Assembly (NCBI GenBank): GCA_034433795.1
Contig: DAOUAE010000013.1
Location: forward strand, 1 to 64,000
Origin: Chloroflexota bacterium
Lineage (GTDB): Bacteria; Chloroflexota; UBA6077; FW602-bin22; DAOUAE01
Direction: 5' to 3'
DNA length: 64,000 bases
The notes beneath the pieces were generated by a model, which had not been told where the DNA came from, made no database searches, and worked only from the letters and a program-made list of their open reading frames with translations. This document shows positions 36,562 through 64,000 of this stretch, piece by piece; position 1 is the stretch's first letter; each line of letters begins with the position of its first letter. The position numbers and the translations under genes are program-made.

Positions 36562-36843
36562 CTAGAGACGCAGGAAAGCCTGGACGGGCAGGACGAAGAC
36601 CGTTCCGGCCCCGATCGTGACCCCGCTGGCCTCGGTCGCCGGGCGGGCCTGGGTGTGCTCGTTGAGCAACTGGATCACGCGGTCGACCTCGGCGTCGTCC
36701 ACGCCGATGAGCAGCGTCGCGTTGCCCCGGCGCAGGAAGCCGCCCGCCGTGTTGATGCGCGTCGCCCGGTAGTTGTTCTCCATCAGGGCGTCGAGGATCG
36801 TCCCGGCGTCCTGATCCTGAACGATGGCTAGCAGCAGTTTCAT
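36562..36843 (-). CDS. DarA-like PII-type c-di-AMP receptor protein (DUF970/CdAMP_rec), paralogue 2
   Basis: MKLLLAIVQDQDAGTILDALMENNYRATRINTAGGFLRRGNATLLIGVDDAEVDRVIQLL...GTVFVLPV. Close match to B. subtilis DarA/YaaQ pattern (MKLIVAVVQDQD...TGGFL..GN.T..IG...VFVLPV). Confidence 0.75.
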   Translation of the reverse strand: MKLLLAIVQDQDAGTILDALMENNYRATRINTAGGFLRRGNATLLIGVDDAEVDRVIQLLNEHTQARPATEASGVTIGAGTVFVLPVQAFLRL

Positions 36844-36859: not shown

Positions 36860-37219
36860 CTACCGCAGTGTCCGGCGCGTGGCTGCCATCTGACCCTGCA
36901 GGGTGACCACCCGTTCGACGGGCAGCACGAAGACGACCGCGCCGCCGACCTCGACCTCGACCACGTCGGAGAAGATGGCGGGCTCGCCGAAGGGTGGGGC
37001 GTAGAGGACGGTGCGGGTGTGGCAGGTCTCGGCGATGATCTGAAGGATACGGTCCACCTCGGTCAGCGGAGCGCCGATGAGGAAGGCGACGTTGCGCTCG
37101 CGCAGGAACCCGCCGACGGTGTTGAGGCGGGTGCAGCGGACGCCGGCGGCCGCCAGGGCCTGGTTTAGGCGGCCGGCGTCGATGTCCTGGACGATGGCCA
37201 GAATGAGCGTGTACTCCAC
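36860..37219 (-). CDS. DarA-like PII-type c-di-AMP receptor protein (DUF970/CdAMP_rec), paralogue 1
   Basis: GTG start after GGAAAGGAGGGGAGC. MEYTLILAIVQDIDAGRLNQAL...RLNTVGGFLRERNVAFLIGA...VVEVEVGGAVVFVLPV. Confidence 0.75.
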   Translation of the reverse strand: MEYTLILAIVQDIDAGRLNQALAAAGVRCTRLNTVGGFLRERNVAFLIGAPLTEVDRILQIIAETCHTRTVLYAPPFGEPAIFSDVVEVEVGGAVVFVLPVERVVTLQGQMAATRRTLR

Positions 37220-37249: not shown

Positions 37250-37425
37250 CAGAAAACCGGAGGCAGTAGCCTCCGGTCCGACCGCTGACGCTACGCCTCT
37301 TTCAAATGCCTACGAGGTTAGCTGACGGGCTCGGGCTGAAAGAGCCTACCCTATCCCTGACCGGGAATTCGCCCCAACCGACTGGGTCCCCCGTTCCCCG
37401 CGGTGCGGGGATTCGGCTCTCTTCA
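37250..37425 (-). ncRNA. c-di-AMP riboswitch (ydaO/kimA class) with intrinsic terminator expression platform
   Basis: Minus strand reads GCCGAAUCCCCGCACCGCGGGGAACGGGGGACCCAGUCGGUUGGGGCGAAUUCCCGGUCAGGGAUAGGGUAGGCUCUUUCAGCCCGAGCCCGUCAGCUAACCUCGUAGGCAUUUGAAAGAGGCG. It has the pseudo-twofold ydaO layout and conserved blocks (GCCGAAUCC, ACGGGG(G)ACCCA, GGGG-GAAUUCC, CCCG-CCCG-CAGCUAAC). Terminator CCGGAGGCUACUGCCUCCGG-UUUUCUGUU ends ~20 nt before the RBS of DarA paralogue 1. Confidence 0.65.
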
Positions 37426-37441
37426 CTTGTCGGCCTGGAGT

Positions 37442-54799: not shown

Positions 54800-55099
54800 A
54801 TGGGCGAGTCGACCAGCACCCCGCAGCGTGTCGCCGCGCTGGTGCGCGAGCGCACCGGTCTTTACGTGTACAGTGTGGGTGCCAGCCGTGTTCAGGCCGG
54901 GCCCGGGCAGGAGTCTCTGACGGTCTGGACCGCCTGGACCGAGCGGGGGACGTTTTATCTCATCGACGGACCGGAGCCGGTCCTCTACCGGCGGTCGTCG
55001 GCCTGCCCGACGCCTTTCGCCGCCGGCCGGCGCTATCTGGCCGAGCGGGCGGGCACCGCCCCTCGCCGGCTGGCCGAGCGGCCCGAGCCGACCGGCTGA
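54800..55099 (+). CDS. hypothetical protein (99 aa)
   Basis: ATG after GAGGGCAGGG. High GC3 in frame. No motif recognised. Confidence 0.35.
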   Translation: MGESTSTPQRVAALVRERTGLYVYSVGASRVQAGPGQESLTVWTAWTERGTFYLIDGPEPVLYRRSSACPTPFAAGRRYLAERAGTAPRRLAERPEPTG

Positions 55100-55249: not shown

Positions 55250-55453
55250 GTGCGAACGGGTCAGCGCGTCCGCATCAAAGAGAGCGTCCGCTTCTGGGGT
55301 GGACGTGGCGGCATCGTCGTCAACGTCGAACCCGGCGCGGTCTGGGTGCGGCTGGACCAGCCCGATGGCCGCCCGATCCACACCACCTTGCGGTTCACGC
55401 TCGATGAGGTGACGGTGGAGATGGAGCGGCCGGCCTCACCGACCAGTCCCTGA
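55250..55453 (+). CDS. hypothetical small KOW/Tudor-like beta-barrel protein (67 aa)
   Basis: Only this frame has strong GC3 bias. GQRVRIKESVRFWGGRGGIVVNVEPGAVWVRLD resembles the DUF2945/Hva1-TUDOR pattern. Start is a tentative GTG. Confidence 0.3.
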   Translation: MRTGQRVRIKESVRFWGGRGGIVVNVEPGAVWVRLDQPDGRPIHTTLRFTLDEVTVEMERPASPTSP

Positions 55454-55477
55454 CGCCGCTCCCGCCGCGGTGCGGGC

Positions 55478-55729
55478 TCAGCCCTGGAGCCGGGACCGCA
55501 CCGCGGCGACGATCTCCTCGGGTTTGGGAAACGTGCCCGACCGGAGCCGGGAGTGGACCAGTTCCCCGTCGATGCGCACCTCGAAGGCCCCGTCGAAACC
55601 GGGAACAATCCGCACCGCGTCCAGAGCCGGGCCGAACTCGCGCAGGAGCACTTCGGTCAGGCGGACCGCCTGATCTTCGTACCCTCACTCGGTGCAGTAG
55701 GTGATCTCAACGGTGACCGGCCGTTTCAT
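55478..55729 (-). CDS. selW: SelW/Rdx-family selenoprotein with in-frame UGA (Sec) in CxxU motif
   Basis: Not in ORF track. ATG 55727-55729 with perfect RBS AAGGAGA 8 nt upstream. MKRPVTVEITYCTE-U(TGA 55685-55687)-GYEDQAVRLTEVLLREFGPALDAVRIVPGFDGAFEVRIDGELVHSRLRSGTFPKPEEIVAAVRSRLQG-stop. Downstream block matches the Rdx consensus (...GGxFEVxVDGELVxSKLxxGRFPxxxEL...). Hairpin UCAGGCGG-UCC-GCCUGA starts 11 nt after the UGA (bSECIS-like, GU in apical loop). Confidence 0.7.
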
Positions 55730-55764
55730 CGCTGGCGTCTCCTTACCCAACCGAGGCTTTCTCT

Positions 55765-56790
55765 TCAGCGCGCCACGCCGGACGCCGCGGGTGTCTGGAG
55801 GGCCTGACCGAGTTCCTGGTGGTAGGCGAAGAGGGCCGGCGTGCCGCCGGTGTGGATGAAGACCACCGTCTGGTCGGATCGGATCTGGCCCCGCCGGATG
55901 TGGTCGATAAGCCCGGCCGCCGCCTTGGCGGTGTAGACCGGGTCGAGAATGATCCCTTCGGTCTGGGCGAAGAGCCGGATCGCCTCGGCCGCCGCCGGCG
56001 TCAGGACAGCGTAGCCCGGCCCGACGTAGGCGTCGCTCACCGTAAAATCCTCGGGGCCGAACGTCAGGTCCACTCCCAGCCGCCGGGCGCCCTCGGTGGC
56101 CACGCGGGCGCAGTTCTGGCGGACGACCGTGGCCGGACTGCCCGGGCTGATGCCCACCACCTGGTAGGCGGCGTGGTAGAGCCGGGCCCCCAGGACCAGC
56201 CCGCCCTGGGTGCCGCCCGAGCCGGAGGCCACGTAGACATAGTCGGCCCGGATCCCCTCCTGAGCCAGCTGCCAGGCCAGTTCGAGAGCGCAGCCGACGT
56301 AGCCCAGACAGCCGACGCCGTTTGAGCCCCCGCCGGGGATAAGGTAGGGCCGGTGGCCCCGGGCCCGCTCCCGGGCCGCGATCTCCTCCATCACCTGGGC
56401 GGCCGGCCGGTCGGGCGCGGGATCGATCAGCTGAACCTCGGCCCCCAGCAGGGCGTCCAGGAGCAGATTGCCCTGGAGTTCGTTGTGCTGGCTGCGGGTC
56501 AGGACCAGAATGCAGCGCAGGCCCAGCTGGCGGGCGGCGGCGGCGGTCTGGCGGGCGTGATTGGACTGCGCCGCCCCGACGGTCAGGACCACGTCGGCCC
56601 CCTGCCGCTGGGCGTCGGCCATCAGGTACTCCAGTTTCCGGGTCTTGTTGCCGCCGAAGGCCAGGCCCGTCAGATCGTCACGCTTGACGAAGATCTGCGG
56701 TCCGCCCAGCGCCGCCGACAGCCGGGGCGCCGGCTGGAGCGGGGTGGGCAGGGTGGCCAGCCGGACACGCGGGATCCGTTCCAGGGGCAT
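55765..56790 (-). CDS. PLP-dependent ACC deaminase / D-cysteine desulfhydrase family enzyme
   Basis: ATLPTPLQP...FVKRDDLTGLAFGGNKTRKLEYLMADA...SNHARQTAAAA. RBS AAGGAGG. Confidence 0.8.
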   Translation of the reverse strand: MPLERIPRVRLATLPTPLQPAPRLSAALGGPQIFVKRDDLTGLAFGGNKTRKLEYLMADAQRQGADVVLTVGAAQSNHARQTAAAARQLGLRCILVLTRSQHNELQGNLLLDALLGAEVQLIDPAPDRPAAQVMEEIAARERARGHRPYLIPGGGSNGVGCLGYVGCALELAWQLAQEGIRADYVYVASGSGGTQGGLVLGARLYHAAYQVVGISPGSPATVVRQNCARVATEGARRLGVDLTFGPEDFTVSDAYVGPGYAVLTPAAAEAIRLFAQTEGIILDPVYTAKAAAGLIDHIRRGQIRSDQTVVFIHTGGTPALFAYHQELGQALQTPAASGVAR

Positions 56791-56814: not shown

Positions 56815-57552
56815 TCAGAACCCGTCGTCACGCCGTGACGGACGGATGAGGATCTCGTCCACGCTGGCCCGTGGGGGCAGGGTCACGGCCAGGAGAACGG
56901 CCGCAGCCACATCCTCGGGCTGGAGCATCTCGGCCCGCGCCTCTGGCGGGGGCGGCACCGGGCGCTGATCCAGGATCGGGGTGTTGGTCTGGCCGGGAAA
57001 GATGGCGCAGGCCCGGATACCGTGCGGCCACTCCTCGAGGTTGATGGACTGGGTCAGGGCGGTCAGGGCGAATTTCGCGGCGCAGTAGGCCACTCCGGAG
57101 ACGGCGTAGGCCCGTCGCCCGGAGATCGAGGAGATGTTGACGATGGTCCCCCGCCGCTGGGCCCGCATGTAGGGGAGCACCGCCCGGACGGTGTAGAAGA
57201 CGCTGTGGACGTTGACATCGAAGGTGCGGTGCCAGTCCGCCAGGGAGATGGTGGCCAGATGCCGCTGAGGAACATTGTAGCCCTGGCTGTTGACCAGGAT
57301 ATCGATGCGGCCCCAGCGGTCGGCCGCCGCCCGGGCCATCTGCTCGGCCACCCCCGGGTCGGTGACATCGCCGGGCCAGGGGACCGCCTCCCCACCCTGG
57401 GAGGCGATGGTCTGGGCGACGGCCTCCAGCTCGTTCGCCCGCCGGGCCACCAGCAGCACCCGGGCCCCCTCACCAGCCAGGGCCAGGGCGGTGGCCCGGC
57501 CGATACCGGAACTGGCGCCGACCACGATCGCCACCTGTTCGGCCAAGCGCAT
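56815..57552 (-). CDS. SDR-family oxidoreductase
   Basis: MRLAEQVAIVVGASSGIGRATA (TGxxxGxG), NSQG, YCAAKFAL catalytic YxxxK. ATG 57550-57552 after GAGGAG. Confidence 0.8.
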   Translation of the reverse strand: MRLAEQVAIVVGASSGIGRATALALAGEGARVLLVARRANELEAVAQTIASQGGEAVPWPGDVTDPGVAEQMARAAADRWGRIDILVNSQGYNVPQRHLATISLADWHRTFDVNVHSVFYTVRAVLPYMRAQRRGTIVNISSISGRRAYAVSGVAYCAAKFALTALTQSINLEEWPHGIRACAIFPGQTNTPILDQRPVPPPPEARAEMLQPEDVAAAVLLAVTLPPRASVDEILIRPSRRDDGF

Positions 57553-57776
57553 ACGACTCCTCACCGCCGTGCAAACTGACCGCGCCCATTATAGCGGTCT
57601 GAAGGGCGTCTGTCGACCGGTGGCCACCGCTGTCCGCCCCCAGGGAAAGGTCCATCTCCGCCAGGGCTGGCCGGGCGGGGCGTCTGGAAGACGGCCGCCG
57701 AGCGTTGACGCGGGGCGGGCGACCTGTTACCCTGAGGAAGCCGACCCTGGCAGCCGCTTTCGGGAGGTGGGAGGCT

Positions 57777-58928
57777 ATGGACCTGGCCGCCATCCGGGCC
57801 GCACACCCGGCCCTGGCGCAGTGCATCTATCTCAACACCGGCACCTACGGCCTGACCCCCACACCGGTCGTCGAGCGTCTCCTCAGTCTGACCCGTCGCT
57901 TCGAAGAAGAGGGCGCGGTCGCCTACGCCGACCTCACGGCCCAGCTGGAGGCCGTTCGGGAGCGGGTGGCCGCCTGCCTGGGGGCTTCGCCGGACGAGAT
58001 CGCCTTCACCCGCAACGCCACCGACGGCGTCAACCTAGTCACCGCCGGTCTGGACTGGCGGCCGGGCGATGAGGTCGTGCTGTCGGACCAGGAGCATCCG
58101 GCGATGGATTACCCGTGGTCGTTTCTGGCCCAGACGCGGGGTGTCCGTGTGGTTCTCTTTCAGGTCGACCCTGACCCCCGGCGGACTCTGGCCAGCGTCG
58201 AGCGGGCGCTCTCGCCCCGGACGCGGGTGGTGGCCGCCAGCCACGTCAGCTGCCAGACGGGGATCCGGCTGCCGGTGGCCGAGATCTGCGCCCTGGCTCG
58301 CGCCCACGGCGCCCTCAGCCTGATCGACGGCGCCCAGGCCTTTGGCATGATTCCGGTCGACGTTCGGGCCATCGGCTGCGACTTCTACACCACCAACGGT
58401 CACAAATGGCTGTGCGGTCCTAAGGGCACGGGCTTTTTCTACATCCGCCGGGATCTTCTGGACCAGGTTCGTCCGGCGCACGTGGGCGCCGGCTCGGCCA
58501 GCCAGTTCACTGCCGACCGGCGGCTAGTGCTTCAGCCCTCGGCCCGGCGCTACGAGTTCGGCTCGCGCGCCCTGGCCACCCACGTGGCGGTGGGAGCGGC
58601 GCTGGACTGGTTCGATCAGATCGGCTGGGAGGCCATCAGCCAGCGGGTGCGGGCCCTGGCCACGCTGCTCAAAGAGCGTCTCCAGGCCGTTCCCGGCCTG
58701 GTCCTCCACACCCCCTGTGACTGGGCGGCCGCCTCGGGGCTGACCAGTTTCAGTCTGCCGGGGCTCGAGGCGGCCGGACTCCAGCGCCGGCTCTGGGAGG
58801 AGCACCGGATCGTCAGCCGGCTGGTCAGCGAGCGGAACGCCCTGCGTCTCTCAACCCACTACTTCAACACCGAGGAGGAGATCGAGCGCACGGTGGCCGT
58901 GCTGCATCAGCTCGCCCGGACGGCCTGA
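57777..58928 (+). CDS. class-V aminotransferase (cysteine desulfurase / isopenicillin-N epimerase-like)
   Basis: ATG after GGGAGGTGGGAGG. IYLNTGTYGLTP...FYTTNGHKWLCGPKGTGFFYIR (PLP lysine in NGHKW). Confidence 0.8.
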   Translation: MDLAAIRAAHPALAQCIYLNTGTYGLTPTPVVERLLSLTRRFEEEGAVAYADLTAQLEAVRERVAACLGASPDEIAFTRNATDGVNLVTAGLDWRPGDEVVLSDQEHPAMDYPWSFLAQTRGVRVVLFQVDPDPRRTLASVERALSPRTRVVAASHVSCQTGIRLPVAEICALARAHGALSLIDGAQAFGMIPVDVRAIGCDFYTTNGHKWLCGPKGTGFFYIRRDLLDQVRPAHVGAGSASQFTADRRLVLQPSARRYEFGSRALATHVAVGAALDWFDQIGWEAISQRVRALATLLKERLQAVPGLVLHTPCDWAAASGLTSFSLPGLEAAGLQRRLWEEHRIVSRLVSERNALRLSTHYFNTEEEIERTVAVLHQLARTA

Positions 58929-63275: not shown

Positions 63276-63484
63276 GCGCTGGCCTGGGCTGGTTATCGAA
63301 GGGGGACGTCGGCTGGTCTGTCAGGGCCGGGGGTGAGAGCGGTTGGGGCGACTGCCTGGGGGTGGGAGAGGGTACCTCCGGCTCGGTGGAGCCAGCTTTG
63401 CGAGGTGTCGCTCGCTGGTTGCAGGGCAGGTGGTGGGCTTGACGGCCTGATGGGGGCTGGGCTATACTTAAAGACGCAGCGGAT

Positions 63485-63570
63485 GCGGGTGTGGCGGAAT
63501 TGGTAGACGCGCCAGCTTGAGGGGCTGTTGGGAGATCTCTCCCGTGGAGGTTCGAGTCCTCTCACCCGCA
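63485..63570 (+). tRNA. tRNA-Leu (anticodon GAG)
   Basis: Cloverleaf folded by hand. Acceptor GCGGGTG/CACCCGC, anticodon loop UUGAGGG, long variable arm, T-loop GGTTCGAGTCC, discriminator A. CCA not encoded. Confidence 0.85.
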
Positions 63571-63579
63571 CCCGGTCGA

Positions 63580-63651
63580 GCGGAAGTGGCTCAGTGGTAG
63601 AGCGTCTCCTTGCCAAGGAGAAGGTCGCGGGTTCGAATCCCGTCTTCCGCT
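63580..63651 (+). tRNA. tRNA-Gly (anticodon GCC)
   Basis: Acceptor GCGGAAG/CTTCCGC, anticodon stem TCTCC/GGAGA with loop TTGCCAA, T-loop GGTTCGAATCC, discriminator T. Confidence 0.85.
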
Positions 63652-63658
63652 CCCCTGT

Positions 63659-63732
63659 GGCGACGTAGCCAAGTGGTTTAAGGCGGAGGTCTGCAAAACC
63701 TCTATTCGGCGGTTCGAATCCGCCCGTCGCCT
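63659..63732 (+). tRNA. tRNA-Cys (anticodon GCA)
   Basis: Acceptor GGCGACG/CGTCGCC, anticodon stem GAGGT/ACCTC with loop CTGCAAA, T-loop GGTTCGAATCC, discriminator T. Confidence 0.85.
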
Positions 63733-63750
63733 CCGCCCGTGTGGCTGGTC

Positions 63751-63778
63751 GACCCCGTGAATGCGGGGTCGTTTTTTT
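63751..63778 (+). terminator. intrinsic terminator after tRNA cluster
   Basis: GACCCCG-tgaat-GCGGGGTC followed by GTTTTTTTCT. Confidence 0.55.
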
Positions 63779-63925
63779 CTGGGGGTGTTTCCTGTGGGGC
63801 GGAGAGAGGGTGAGTGGGCCGTGGGATTGGGGGTGGCGGAGTTGCACGGGCGATGGGCGACGCGGTATGCTTTAGACGCGGCGTGGGGTGGTAGGTTGCG
63901 GGGCGTGGCTCTTCGATTTTGACAG

Positions 63926-64000
63926 GCCGAAGTGGCGGAACGGCAGACGCGGCGGTCTCAAAAACCGCTGGGGGCGACCCCGTGGGGGTTCGAATCCCCC
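63926..64000 (+). tRNA. tRNA-Leu (anticodon CAA), 3' end truncated by window
   Basis: Acceptor GCCGAAG, anticodon stem GCGGT/ACCGC with loop CTCAAAA, long variable arm, T-arm GGGGGTTCGAATCCCCC. Window ends before the 3' acceptor strand. Confidence 0.7.

What the first reader, a model, noticed from the sequence alone, without database searches (positions are those of the whole stretch)
55478..55729. Unlisted SelW/Rdx-like selenoprotein gene with in-frame UGA at the CxxU position, downstream of ACC-deaminase-family and SDR genes
On the minus strand a perfect RBS (AAGGAGA) precedes ATG 55729. The frame reads MKRPVTVEITYCTE, then TGA (55685-55687), then continues for 68 more codons. High GC3 and a strong match to the Rdx/SelW fold (VRIVPGFDGAFEVRIDGELVHSRLRSGTFPKPEEI) continue to a TGA stop at 55478. 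The internal TGA sits exactly where Sec (or Cys) occurs in the CxxU/CxxC redox motif. A hairpin (UCAGGCGG-UCC-GCCUGA) begins 11 nt downstream, consistent with a bacterial SECIS. ORF callers miss it, so it is missing from the supplied track. Only 35 nt separate it from the upstream PLP-dependent ACC-deaminase/D-cysteine-desulfhydrase-family gene, hinting at co-transcription with that gene and the SDR.
Basis: partly seen in the sequence, partly recalled or inferred. Interest (0 to 1): 0.75.

Follow-up and report, generated by a model that had tools for sequence, protein, structure and literature searches.

The report
SelW-like selenoprotein gene, miscalled as fragment
A small redox-protein gene of the well-known SelW/Rdx family very probably encodes selenocysteine at an in-frame UGA, which is why gene callers report only its tail; it is a sound annotation catch but an ordinary member of a known selenoprotein family.

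Summary
On the minus strand, AAGGAGA, then ATG 55729, 14 codons (MKRPVTVEITYCTE), TGA 55685-55687, 68 more codons and stop 55478-55480. With Sec read as Cys, the 83-aa product matches Pfam Rdx over its full length (79 bits, cutoff 22.6) and TIGR02174. The TGA aligns with the second Cys of CxxC in all Cys-form relatives. Nine diverged relatives also carry TGA there, and the closest reads KYCTE-TGA-GYEDQAV. A 7-bp hairpin (loop GUC, 18 nt after UGA, -9.8 kcal/mol) meets all four published bacterial SECIS constraints. Sec forms have stronger hairpins there than Cys forms (p about 5e-4), with one compensatory pair change in each subgroup. The TGA is identical in about eleven independent hot-spring assemblies. 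Strains 97.5-99.4% identical differ only at two synonymous sites in the gene. TGA is the commonest normal stop here (31 of 46), so the code is not reassigned. Gene callers report only a 57-aa C-terminal fragment. A promoter, 24- and 35-nt gaps and a terminal hairpin support an SDR-PLP lyase-Rdx operon. Not verifiable: selA/B/C/D, because the rest of the genome could not be retrieved. Verdict: a genuine SelW-like selenoprotein gene, a new member of a known kind.

The parts
55478..55729 (-). Full-length SelW-like/Rdx selenoprotein CDS: 83 codons plus stop, with Sec at codon 15
   Evidence: for the sequence. Pfam Rdx 79.1 bits and TIGR02174 71.7 bits with U read as C. Homology to solved Rdx-fold proteins 2fa8, 3dex, 2npb.
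55738..55744 (-). Shine-Dalgarno sequence AAGGAGA, 8 nt upstream of ATG 55729 (AAGGAG core 9 nt upstream)
   Evidence: Read directly from the sequence. Unchanged in strain variants L037-L040, although the intergenic spacer further upstream varies.
55685..55696 (-). CxxU redox motif (Cys12-Thr-Glu-Sec15). The Sec codon TGA is at 55685-55687.
   Evidence: The TGA aligns with the second Cys of CxxC in L007-L009, L013-L023, L026 and P0003, and with TGA in L010, L024, L025, L027-L031 and L033.
55657..55673 (-). SECIS-like hairpin UCAGGCG-GUC-CGCCUGA: 7 bp, apical loop GUC at 55664-55666, 18 nt between UGA and loop
   Evidence: dG is -9.8 kcal/mol at 37 C and -5.0 at 65 C. It meets all four bSECIS model constraints (PMC13188914). 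The same hairpin occurs in L028/L030 with a compensatory U-A to C-G change. Sec forms have stronger hairpins than Cys forms, p about 5e-4.
55649..55651 (-). GTG used by gene callers as the start of the truncated 57-aa product; very probably not a real start
   Evidence: No Shine-Dalgarno sequence lies upstream of it. Amino-acid conservation continues upstream of it in all homologues.
55463..55508 (-). Strong hairpin (13-bp perfect outer stem) spanning the Rdx stop codon; candidate operon terminator without a U tract
   Evidence: the 101-nt context folds at -62.3 kcal/mol, z=-3.2, and 0 of 200 shuffles fold as well. The consensus terminator scan did not report it because it lacks a T run.
55765..56790 (-). 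PLP-dependent enzyme of the D-cysteine desulfhydrase / ACC-deaminase-related family, closest to CuyA; the upstream operon member
   Evidence: PALP 191.6 bits. TIGR01275 320 bits, above its 289.4 cutoff. CuyA NF052482 399.7 bits, below its 450 cutoff.
56815..57564 (-). Short-chain dehydrogenase/reductase, first gene of the operon (metagenome callers start it at 57552)
   Evidence: adh_short 185 bits. Gene calls on the metagenome contigs.
57588..57616 (-). Sigma-70-like promoter TCGACA-17-TATAAT (11 of 12) upstream of the SDR
   Evidence: 2 sites found in the region against 0.1 expected from shuffles.
57777..58928 (+). Divergently transcribed class-V PLP enzyme, C-DES-like cysteine/cystine C-S lyase type. 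This is context; its membership of the system is not shown.
   Evidence: Aminotran_5 238.7 bits. The best solved relative is Synechocystis C-DES 1elq, E=6e-47. The GHKW lysine is kept, and no Cys is seen where SufS has HHC.

Best explanation
The locus 55478-55729 (minus strand) is an intact gene for an 83-residue SelW-like (Rdx-family) thiol/selenol oxidoreductase. Its active site is Cys12-x-x-Sec15. The UGA at 55685-55687 is decoded as selenocysteine. The proposed route is the standard bacterial one: the hairpin 11 nt downstream (a SECIS element lying inside the coding sequence) recruits SelB-GTP-Sec-tRNA(Sec) to the ribosome, so translation continues to the UGA at 55478-55480. The gene is the last cistron of an SDR-PLP lyase-Rdx operon. 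That operon is driven by the promoter at 57616-57588 and closed by the hairpin over the Rdx stop codon. The protein probably cycles between a selenol/thiol state and a selenylsulfide state. In that way it would exchange reducing equivalents with a thioredoxin-fold partner or a low-molecular-weight thiol. What is shown: the anatomy, family membership, the Sec/Cys alignment, a SECIS-compliant hairpin with comparative support, retention of the TGA across strains and deep relatives, and the operon signals. What is inferred: actual Sec insertion, presence of SelA/SelB/SelC/SelD in this organism, the redox chemistry, and any functional link to the neighbouring sulfur-amino-acid lyases.
For: The sequence and frame are as described. 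The Rdx match is full length and well above cutoffs (PF10262 79.1 vs 22.6 bits; TIGR02174 71.7 vs 34.2). The protein is homologous to solved Rdx-fold proteins, including mouse SelW. The TGA column is Cys in 12 or more relatives and TGA in 9 others besides the window's own population. The closest Sec form, L028 at about 52% identity, reads KYCTE-TGA-GYEDQAV. Many database homologues are 52-62-aa N-terminally truncated calls, which is the usual footprint of Sec forms. The hairpin satisfies the bSECIS constraints (PMC13188914). Best hairpins in the SECIS window average -9.5 kcal/mol in 10 Sec forms against -5.6 in 9 Cys forms (Mann-Whitney p=4.6e-4), and the loop begins with G in 9 of 10 Sec forms. 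There are compensatory changes: U-A to C-G between the window and L028, and U-A to C-G between L029 and L010. The TGA and hairpin are identical in about 11 independent assemblies. Strains at 97.5-99.4% identity show 2 synonymous and 0 nonsynonymous changes in Rdx, against 9/2 in the PLP gene and 10/3 in the SDR. TGA is the normal stop for 31 of 46 window genes. It is the only plausible TGA-read-through ORF in the window. There is a good SD before ATG 55729 and none before GTG 55651. A redox role is supported by Thioredoxin_9 adjacency (L008, L009, L014, L023) and Thioredoxin_9-Rdx fusions (P0013, P0017, P0045) among relatives. SelW-like CxxU proteins are an established bacterial selenoprotein family (PMC1088965, PMC1794560).
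Against: No selA, selB or selD (tblastn with E. coli queries; Pfam of large ORFs) and no tRNA-Sec lie in the window or in the roughly 6 kb of extra flank recovered. The source genome was not retrievable, so the Sec-decoding trait is unverified for this organism. The hairpin by itself is not rare in this GC-rich DNA (4-16% background), and its z-score in a 61-nt context is only -1.3. Rfam gave no SECIS hit, although Rfam has no good bacterial SECIS model. The nearest relatives by identity (54-58%) are Cys forms. Strain-level evidence rests on only two variable sites. Sec and Cys sequences are phylogenetically non-independent, so the p-value is optimistic.
Confidence: 0.85

Rival explanations
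1. The gene is a pseudogene or relic. Either a Cys-form Rdx gene suffered a TGC-to-TGA nonsense mutation, or it is a former selenoprotein gene stranded after this lineage lost the Sec machinery. In both cases translation stops after 14 residues.
For: No Sec machinery was found in the DNA available. The most similar homologues by identity are Cys forms. TGC to TGA is a single base change. Loss of the Sec trait and of SelW-like genes in sister lineages is documented (PMC1794560, Table 4).
Against: The same TGA with the same hairpin is kept in L028/L030 at about 52% protein identity, which implies long-term selection. There are no frameshifts, no further stops, and an intact SD and start. Only synonymous variation occurs among strains, whereas the adjacent intergenic spacer has an indel and substitutions. 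GC3 stays coding-like on both sides of the TGA. The hairpin is maintained specifically in TGA forms.
Confidence: 0.07
2. The real product is the 57-residue C-terminal fragment that gene callers predict (start GTG 55651). It would be an Rdx-domain remnant without the redox motif, and the upstream 14-codon ORF would be incidental.
For: This is the model in JGI, ENA and NCBI gene calls, and the fragment alone still hits Pfam Rdx.
Against: No Shine-Dalgarno sequence precedes GTG 55651, whereas AAGGAGA precedes ATG 55729. The fragment lacks beta-strand 1 and the CxxC/CxxU motif that define the family. Residues upstream of the GTG (ITYCTE-U-GYEDQAVRLTE) are conserved in every full-length homologue. 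The GTG lies a few nucleotides downstream of the hairpin.
Confidence: 0.03
3. The UGA is read through without selenium. Near-cognate insertion of Trp or Cys, or a context-dependent recoding event stimulated by the hairpin, would give a CxxW or CxxC protein.
For: A stable hairpin shortly after a stop codon can stimulate read-through in some systems (own knowledge). The Sec machinery is unverified.
Against: Position, spacing and the G-U loop fit the bacterial SECIS model. The site is the catalytic Cys/Sec position of a family with many proven or predicted Sec members (PMC1088965). A genome-wide TGA reassignment is excluded, since 31 of 46 genes stop at TGA.
Confidence: 0.03

Closest known systems
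Bacterial SelW-like selenoproteins (CxxU), as catalogued in the Sargasso Sea and bacterial-genome selenoproteome surveys (PMC1088965, PMC1794560); Pfam PF10262 Rdx / TIGR02174
   Same: Size of about 80 aa. CxxU motif directly after the first beta-strand. UGA aligned with Cys in homologues. An in-CDS SECIS hairpin with a small apical loop containing G. Routinely truncated or missed by gene callers. Both Sec and Cys forms exist in the family.
   Different: Nothing fundamental differs. This copy comes from a 70% GC hot-spring bacterium and sits in an SDR-PLP lyase operon not seen next to the relatives examined. Its SECIS lies 4 nt closer to the UGA than in the L010/L024-type Sec forms.
Cys-containing bacterial Rdx proteins with solved structures: Atu0228 (2fa8), SAV_2001 (3dex), 2oka, 2obk, 2ojl, 2p0g
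   Same: Alignable over the whole domain (E=5.6e-11 to 1.6e-6). Same position for the CxxC/CxxU motif.
   Different: Those proteins have CxxC (typically CTQC followed by W/N) and about 20 extra C-terminal residues. The window protein has CTEU followed by GYED. None of them has a known physiological function.
Mammalian selenoprotein W (2npb) and MIEN1/C17orf37 (2ljk)
   Same: Same Rdx fold family and the same CxxU (SelW) or CxxC (MIEN1) position.
   Different: Eukaryotic SelW uses a 3'-UTR SECIS of unrelated structure (PMC1088965, Fig. 7). Sequence similarity is low (32.6 bits to 2npb).
E. coli fdhF-type bacterial SECIS, the SelB-binding hairpin immediately 3' of UGA (own knowledge; consensus model in PMC13188914)
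   Same: It lies inside the coding sequence. It has a GC-rich stem, a small loop with G followed by U, and loop spacing within 16-37 nt.
   Different: The stem is shorter (7 bp) and has no bulged U. There is no sequence similarity, which is normal between bacterial SECIS elements. Binding to SelB was not tested.
Thioredoxin_9 (PF14595)-Rdx gene pairs and fusion proteins in Chloroflexota and other relatives
   Same: The Rdx domain is of the same subfamily (ITYCxEC-GYE...). The pairing implies a thiol-redox partnership.
   Different: The window has no Thioredoxin_9 gene within 64 kb. The partnered copies examined are Cys forms.

Membership tests
Rdx / SelT-SelW-SelH family (PF10262, TIGR02174) | Profile-HMM score above the curated cutoff over the whole domain | tested here: met
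   PF10262 scores 79.1 bits against 22.6, covering model 1-73 of 74. TIGR02174 scores 71.7 bits against 34.2. Sec was substituted by Cys for the scan.
Rdx / SelT-SelW-SelH family (PF10262, TIGR02174) | CxxC or CxxU motif immediately after the N-terminal beta-strand | tested here: met
   C12-T-E-U15 aligns with CxxC in all full-length homologues and with CTQC of 2fa8 and 3dex.
Rdx / SelT-SelW-SelH family (PF10262, TIGR02174) | Thioredoxin-like Rdx fold | not tested
   Supported only by sequence homology to eight solved Rdx-fold chains. No model was built, because the Sec-to-Cys sequence is not accepted by the structure tool.
NF041051 SelTWH_Campy (equivalog) | Score above the equivalog cutoff | tested here: not met
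   67.6 bits against a cutoff of 88. The protein is not a member of that specific equivalog, only of the wider family.
Bacterial selenoprotein (Sec-decoding gene) | In-frame UGA aligned with Cys, or UGA, in homologues, with conservation on both sides | tested here: met
   The column is Cys in L007-L009, L013-L023, L026 and P0003, among others. It is TGA in L010, L024, L025, L027-L031 and L033. Conserved blocks lie before and after it.
Bacterial selenoprotein (Sec-decoding gene) | bSECIS model: 3-9 nt apical loop, 4-16 bp stem, G in the first two loop positions, 16-37 nt from UGA to loop, dG of -7.5 kcal/mol or lower (PMC13188914, Fig. 2A) | tested here: met
   Loop GUC, 7 bp, spacing 18 nt, -9.8 kcal/mol. 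The background pass rate at other TGA triplets is 16%, or 4% at equal stability with a G[G/U] loop.
Bacterial selenoprotein (Sec-decoding gene) | selA, selB, selC (tRNA-Sec) and selD present in the same genome | not testable with these tools
   None are in the window or recovered flanks. The source genome is absent from genome contigs, and no tool lists the other contigs of the MAG.
Bacterial selenoprotein (Sec-decoding gene) | Selenium incorporated into the protein | not testable with these tools
   Requires 75Se labelling or mass spectrometry.
D-cysteate sulfo-lyase CuyA (NF052482), for the upstream operon gene | Score above the equivalog cutoff | tested here: not met
   399.7 bits against 450. 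The broader TIGR01275 D-cysteine desulfhydrase family is met, at 320 bits against 289.4.

The most novel reading that the evidence does not exclude
In this hot-spring lineage the SelW-like selenoprotein has been recruited as the last cistron of a sulfur-amino-acid catabolic operon. The operon holds an SDR and a D-cysteine-desulfhydrase/CuyA-like lyase, and a C-DES-like cystine C-S lyase is transcribed divergently. In this reading the Cys-x-x-Sec centre accepts or reduces the persulfide or sulfide-derived product of these lyases, or the selenium analogue. That would give the first physiological role for the bacterial SelW-like family, which has none. A smaller point: the two SECIS registers, 4 nt apart, would mark independent Cys/Sec conversions within one subfamily.
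Probability: 0.1. Interest if true: 0.55.

Novelty: new member of a known kind. Interest (0 to 1): 0.27.

Why it matters
The practical value is an annotation fix. Public gene calls for this organism, on about eleven contigs from several hot-spring metagenomes and one NCBI MAG, list a meaningless 57-aa fragment instead of an 83-aa CxxU selenoprotein. The gene also implies that this uncultured 70% GC thermophile decodes selenocysteine, which is a checkable prediction about the rest of its genome. Biologically it adds one more SelW-like selenoprotein to a family known since 2005. The operon with sulfur-amino-acid lyases, and the Thioredoxin_9 pairing and fusions in relatives, are modest leads to the still unknown function of bacterial Rdx proteins.

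Tried and rejected
- Rfam scans (gathering on the whole window; E up to 10 on 55400-55800) gave no SECIS family, only chance miRNA-like hits on the terminal hairpin. This is uninformative, because Rfam lacks a usable bacterial SECIS model.
- The word-indexed protein search found only the organism's own 57-aa fragment.
- The source genome is not in the species-representative collection. The accession and paper searches identified only the habitat, Dewar Creek hot spring, not the taxon.
- L001-L006 and L012 carry no differences in the gene, so they only exclude sequencing error.
- tblastn with E. coli SelA, SelB and SelD against the window and all loci found nothing relevant. The two weak SelA hits (25% identity) fall on an unrelated PLP enzyme in L014/L015.
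- The partial tRNA at the window's right edge, next to an integrase, was checked as a possible selC. It is tRNA-Leu(CAA).
- A scan for a second TGA-read-through ORF found none that is credible.
- The SDR, PLP, class-V, AcsA and MurQ neighbours are not conserved next to Rdx genes in relatives, so the operon link is lineage-specific.
- A loop-centred alignment for formal pair counting was re-registered by MAFFT to the codon frame, so covariation was tabulated by hand within subgroups.
- The NJ tree is poorly supported (24.5% for the window's immediate clade). It was not used for claims about the direction of Sec/Cys conversion.
- Rejected: a TGA-reassigned genetic code and a sequencing or assembly artefact.

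Full report
**Observation.** AAGGAGA lies at 55744-55738, with the AAGGAG core 9 nt from ATG 55729. The start is followed by MKRPVTVEITYCTE, TGA at 55685-55687, 68 further sense codons (GYEDQAVRLTEVLLREFGPALDAVRIVPGFDGAFEVRIDGELVHSRLRSGTFPKPEEIVAAVRSRLQG) and a TGA stop at 55478-55480. The mechanical ORF list holds only the 57-aa piece from GTG 55651. The gap to the upstream PLP-enzyme gene is 35 nt.

**Family.** With Sec replaced by Cys, the 83-aa product matches Pfam Rdx (PF10262) end to end: 79.1 bits against a 22.6 cutoff, E=2.9e-22, model positions 1-73 of 74. It also matches NCBIfam TIGR02174 'SelT/SelW/SelH family' at 71.7 bits against 34.2. It does not reach the narrower Campylobacter equivalog NF041051 (67.6 against 88). 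By sequence it is homologous to eight solved Rdx-fold chains, including Atu0228 (2fa8, E=5.6e-11), SAV_2001 (3dex), MIEN1 (2ljk) and mouse selenoprotein W (2npb). The CxxC of those proteins aligns to C12-T-E-U15.

**Is the UGA a Sec codon? Comparative evidence.**
- An exhaustive HMMER search with the post-UGA 68 residues found 192 relatives.
- The full-length relatives carry CxxC, and the closest reads ITYCAECGYED against the window's ITYCTE-UGA-GYED.
- Many other hits are 52-62-aa calls that begin 8-13 residues after the UGA position. This is the usual footprint of truncated Sec forms.
- DNA retrieved for relatives confirms the pattern.
  - TGC or TGT at the column: L007-L009 (Chloroflexota MAGs), L013-L023 and L026.
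  - In-frame TGA at the same column: L010, L024, L025, L027, L028, L029, L030, L031 and L033.
- The closest Sec form, L028 (about 52% identity), reads KYCTE-TGA-GYEDQAV.
- One database entry with 'W' at this position (P0046/L031) is a TGA translated under another code. One with 'G' (P0041/L032) has a true Gly codon.
- Conservation therefore runs through the UGA on both sides, and the UGA is interchangeable with Cys. That is the standard comparative criterion for selenoprotein genes (PMC1088965).

**SECIS.** Eleven nucleotides after the UGA lies UCAGGCG-GUC-CGCCUGA (55673-55657). It has 7 bp and loop GUC. It is -9.8 kcal/mol at 37 C and still -5.0 at 65 C. The published consensus model (PMC13188914, Fig. 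2A) sets four requirements:
- a 3-9-nt loop on a 4-16-bp stem
- G in the first two loop positions, mostly followed by G or U
- 16-37 nt between UGA and loop
- dG of -7.5 kcal/mol or lower

All four are met, with a spacing of 18 nt. On its own this is weak evidence. Of the 1282 TGA triplets in this 70% GC window, 16% pass the model, 8% with equal stability, and 4% with a G[G/U] loop as well. The local z-score is only -1.3.

The comparative picture is stronger.
- In the +9 to +45 interval, the best hairpin averages -9.5 kcal/mol in ten Sec forms and -5.6 in nine Cys forms (Mann-Whitney p=4.6e-4).
- Nine of ten Sec-form loops begin with G: GUC, GGUCG, GGU, GUU or GGUGU.
- The window and L028/L030 share the same hairpin, with a compensatory U-A to C-G change at the basal pair.
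- In the other subgroup, L029 has U-A where L010, L024, L025, L031 and L033 have C-G. Both sides of that change are nonsynonymous.
- The hairpin sits 4 nt further 3' in that second subgroup, so the structure is conserved rather than its position.
- Caveat: these sequences are related to one another, so the p-value is optimistic.

**Not an error, not a reassigned code, not obviously decaying.**
- The TGA and hairpin are identical in L001-L006 and L012, and in the diverged strains L037-L040 (97.5-99.4% identity overall). These come from different samples and assemblers.
- Among the diverged strains the Rdx gene has two variable codons, both synonymous (GAA18GAG and GAG71GAA). The PLP gene has 9 synonymous and 2 nonsynonymous changes, and the SDR has 10 and 3. 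The upstream spacer carries an indel and substitutions.
- TGA terminates 31 of 46 confidently called genes in the window, so a TGA-sense code is excluded.
- The Rdx gene is the only credible ORF in the window that needs one TGA read through.

**What could not be shown.** The window has four complete tRNAs plus one partial tRNA, and none is tRNA-Sec. The partial one, beside an integrase, is tRNA-Leu(CAA). Pfam scans of the large ORFs and tblastn with E. coli SelA, SelB and SelD against the window and all held loci found no Sec machinery. That is unsurprising for 64 kb. The source genome is absent from the species-representative collection. Exact look-ups show that it is an NCBI/ENA contig of 70,785 bp, but its other contigs cannot be listed. 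About 3 kb beyond each window end was seen and holds glnA genes, a histidine kinase and an integrase. One sample is from the Dewar Creek hot spring. Some Chloroflexi and Actinobacteria are known Sec users (PMC1794560, Table 2), but the taxon of this organism was not established.

**Context and mechanism.** An 11/12 sigma-70-like promoter (TCGACA-17-TATAAT, 57616-57588) precedes the SDR (57564/57552-56815). A 24-nt gap leads to the PLP enzyme (56790-55765). That enzyme meets TIGR01275, the D-cysteine desulfhydrase family. It scores 399.7 bits against CuyA, below the 450 cutoff. A 35-nt gap then leads to the Rdx gene. A hairpin with a 13-bp perfect stem spans the Rdx stop codon (55508-55463; z=-3.2). 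This is the anatomy of a three-gene operon.

The divergent gene (57777-58928) is a class-V PLP enzyme closest to Synechocystis C-DES cystine C-S lyase (1elq, E=6e-47). It keeps the GHKW lysine and has no Cys where SufS has its catalytic residue. The neighbourhood thus has a sulfur-amino-acid catabolism flavour, but it is not conserved beside Rdx genes elsewhere.

What does recur among relatives is a Thioredoxin_9 gene next to the Cys-form Rdx (L008, L009, L014, L023). True Thioredoxin_9-Rdx fusion proteins also occur (P0013, P0017, P0045). A glutaredoxin-domain gene follows the Sec form in L010. The window has no Thioredoxin_9 homologue. These associations support the generally assumed thiol/selenol-disulfide oxidoreductase role of the CxxC/CxxU centre. 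The substrate remains unknown, as it does for all bacterial Rdx proteins.

**Comparison with what is known, and verdict.** Bacterial SelW-like CxxU selenoproteins were described in 2005. They were the most abundant selenoprotein family in the Sargasso Sea data, with 48 genes (PMC1088965). They occur in several phyla (PMC1794560). Their in-CDS SECIS with a G-containing small loop, and their systematic mis-annotation, are textbook features. This locus matches that description in every tested respect.

It is a new member of a known kind. I put 0.85 on a functional Sec-containing SelW-like protein. The rivals are 0.07 for a relic or pseudogene, 0.03 for the 57-aa fragment as the true product, and 0.03 for non-Sec read-through. 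Interest is 0.27. The most novel reading not excluded is a lineage-specific role in handling persulfide or selenide products of the neighbouring lyases, which I rate at about 10% probability.

Noticed in passing
L008:6322-6939, L009:9296-9910, L014:8223-8855, L023:1115-1876; proteins P0013, P0017, P0045: In Cys-form relatives, mostly Chloroflexota, the Rdx gene is adjacent to a Thioredoxin_9 (PF14595, EDWCGD motif) gene. Proteins of 266-308 aa fuse Thioredoxin_9 to Rdx. This looks like a Rosetta-stone link pointing to a redox partner for this orphan family. The window has no Thioredoxin_9 homologue.
   Followed up: partly
window 55657-55673 versus L010, L024, L025, L029, L031, L033: Two SECIS registers exist within one Rdx subfamily. 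The window/L028/L030 hairpin (CAGGC-GGUC-GCCUG) is centred 23 nt from the U of UGA. The CCGCCA-GNU-UGGCGG hairpin of the other Sec forms is centred at 27 nt, on non-homologous codons. This suggests either independent Cys/Sec conversions or a SECIS that has slid.
   Followed up: partly
window 57777-58928 (+): A class-V PLP enzyme transcribed divergently from the operon is closest to Synechocystis C-DES cystine C-S lyase (1elq). It lacks the catalytic Cys of SufS-type desulfurases. Together with the D-Cys-desulfhydrase/CuyA-like gene it gives the locus a sulfur-amino-acid catabolism theme.
   Followed up: partly
window 55463-55508 (-): A very stable hairpin (13-bp perfect stem, z=-3.2) has the Rdx stop codon inside it. 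It has no U tract, so the consensus terminator scan missed it. It is probably a high-GC-style terminator or an mRNA-stabilising element.
   Followed up: partly
window 37292-37428 (-): A c-di-AMP (ydaO-type) riboswitch scores 97.7 bits against a 38 gathering score. It lies upstream of two small ORFs (36860-37219 and 36562-36843) of unknown function.
   Followed up: no
window 63484-64000 (+) and L001:1594-2763: A tRNA cluster (Leu(GAG)-Gly-Cys, then Leu(CAA) cut by the window edge) is followed just outside the window by a phage-type integrase. This is a likely integration site for a mobile element. HTH_5/ArsR-like and small unknown genes at 61-63 kb may belong to it.
   Followed up: partly
P0046/L031:94-435; P0041/L032:2282-2575: Some database Rdx proteins show W at the Sec position because TGA was translated under another genetic code. 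In L031 the codon is TGA. P0041 has a genuine Gly codon, giving a CxxG variant.
   Followed up: yes
L010:2281-3630: Directly downstream of the Sec-form Rdx gene in L010 lies a gene that fuses an ADP-ribosylglycohydrolase domain to a C-terminal glutaredoxin domain.
   Followed up: no
window 54800-55099 (+) and 55250-55453 (+): Two small ORFs (99 and 67 aa) are called on the opposite strand just downstream of the Rdx gene in all metagenome contigs. They have no Pfam or NCBIfam match, and the second overlaps the terminal-hairpin region. Whether they are real genes is unclear.
   Followed up: partly
L036:14076-17249 (beyond the window's left end): Two tandem glutamine synthetase genes, followed by a hybrid histidine kinase, lie next to the window's ammonium transporter, PucR-type regulator and NadE. 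This forms a nitrogen-assimilation neighbourhood.
   Followed up: no
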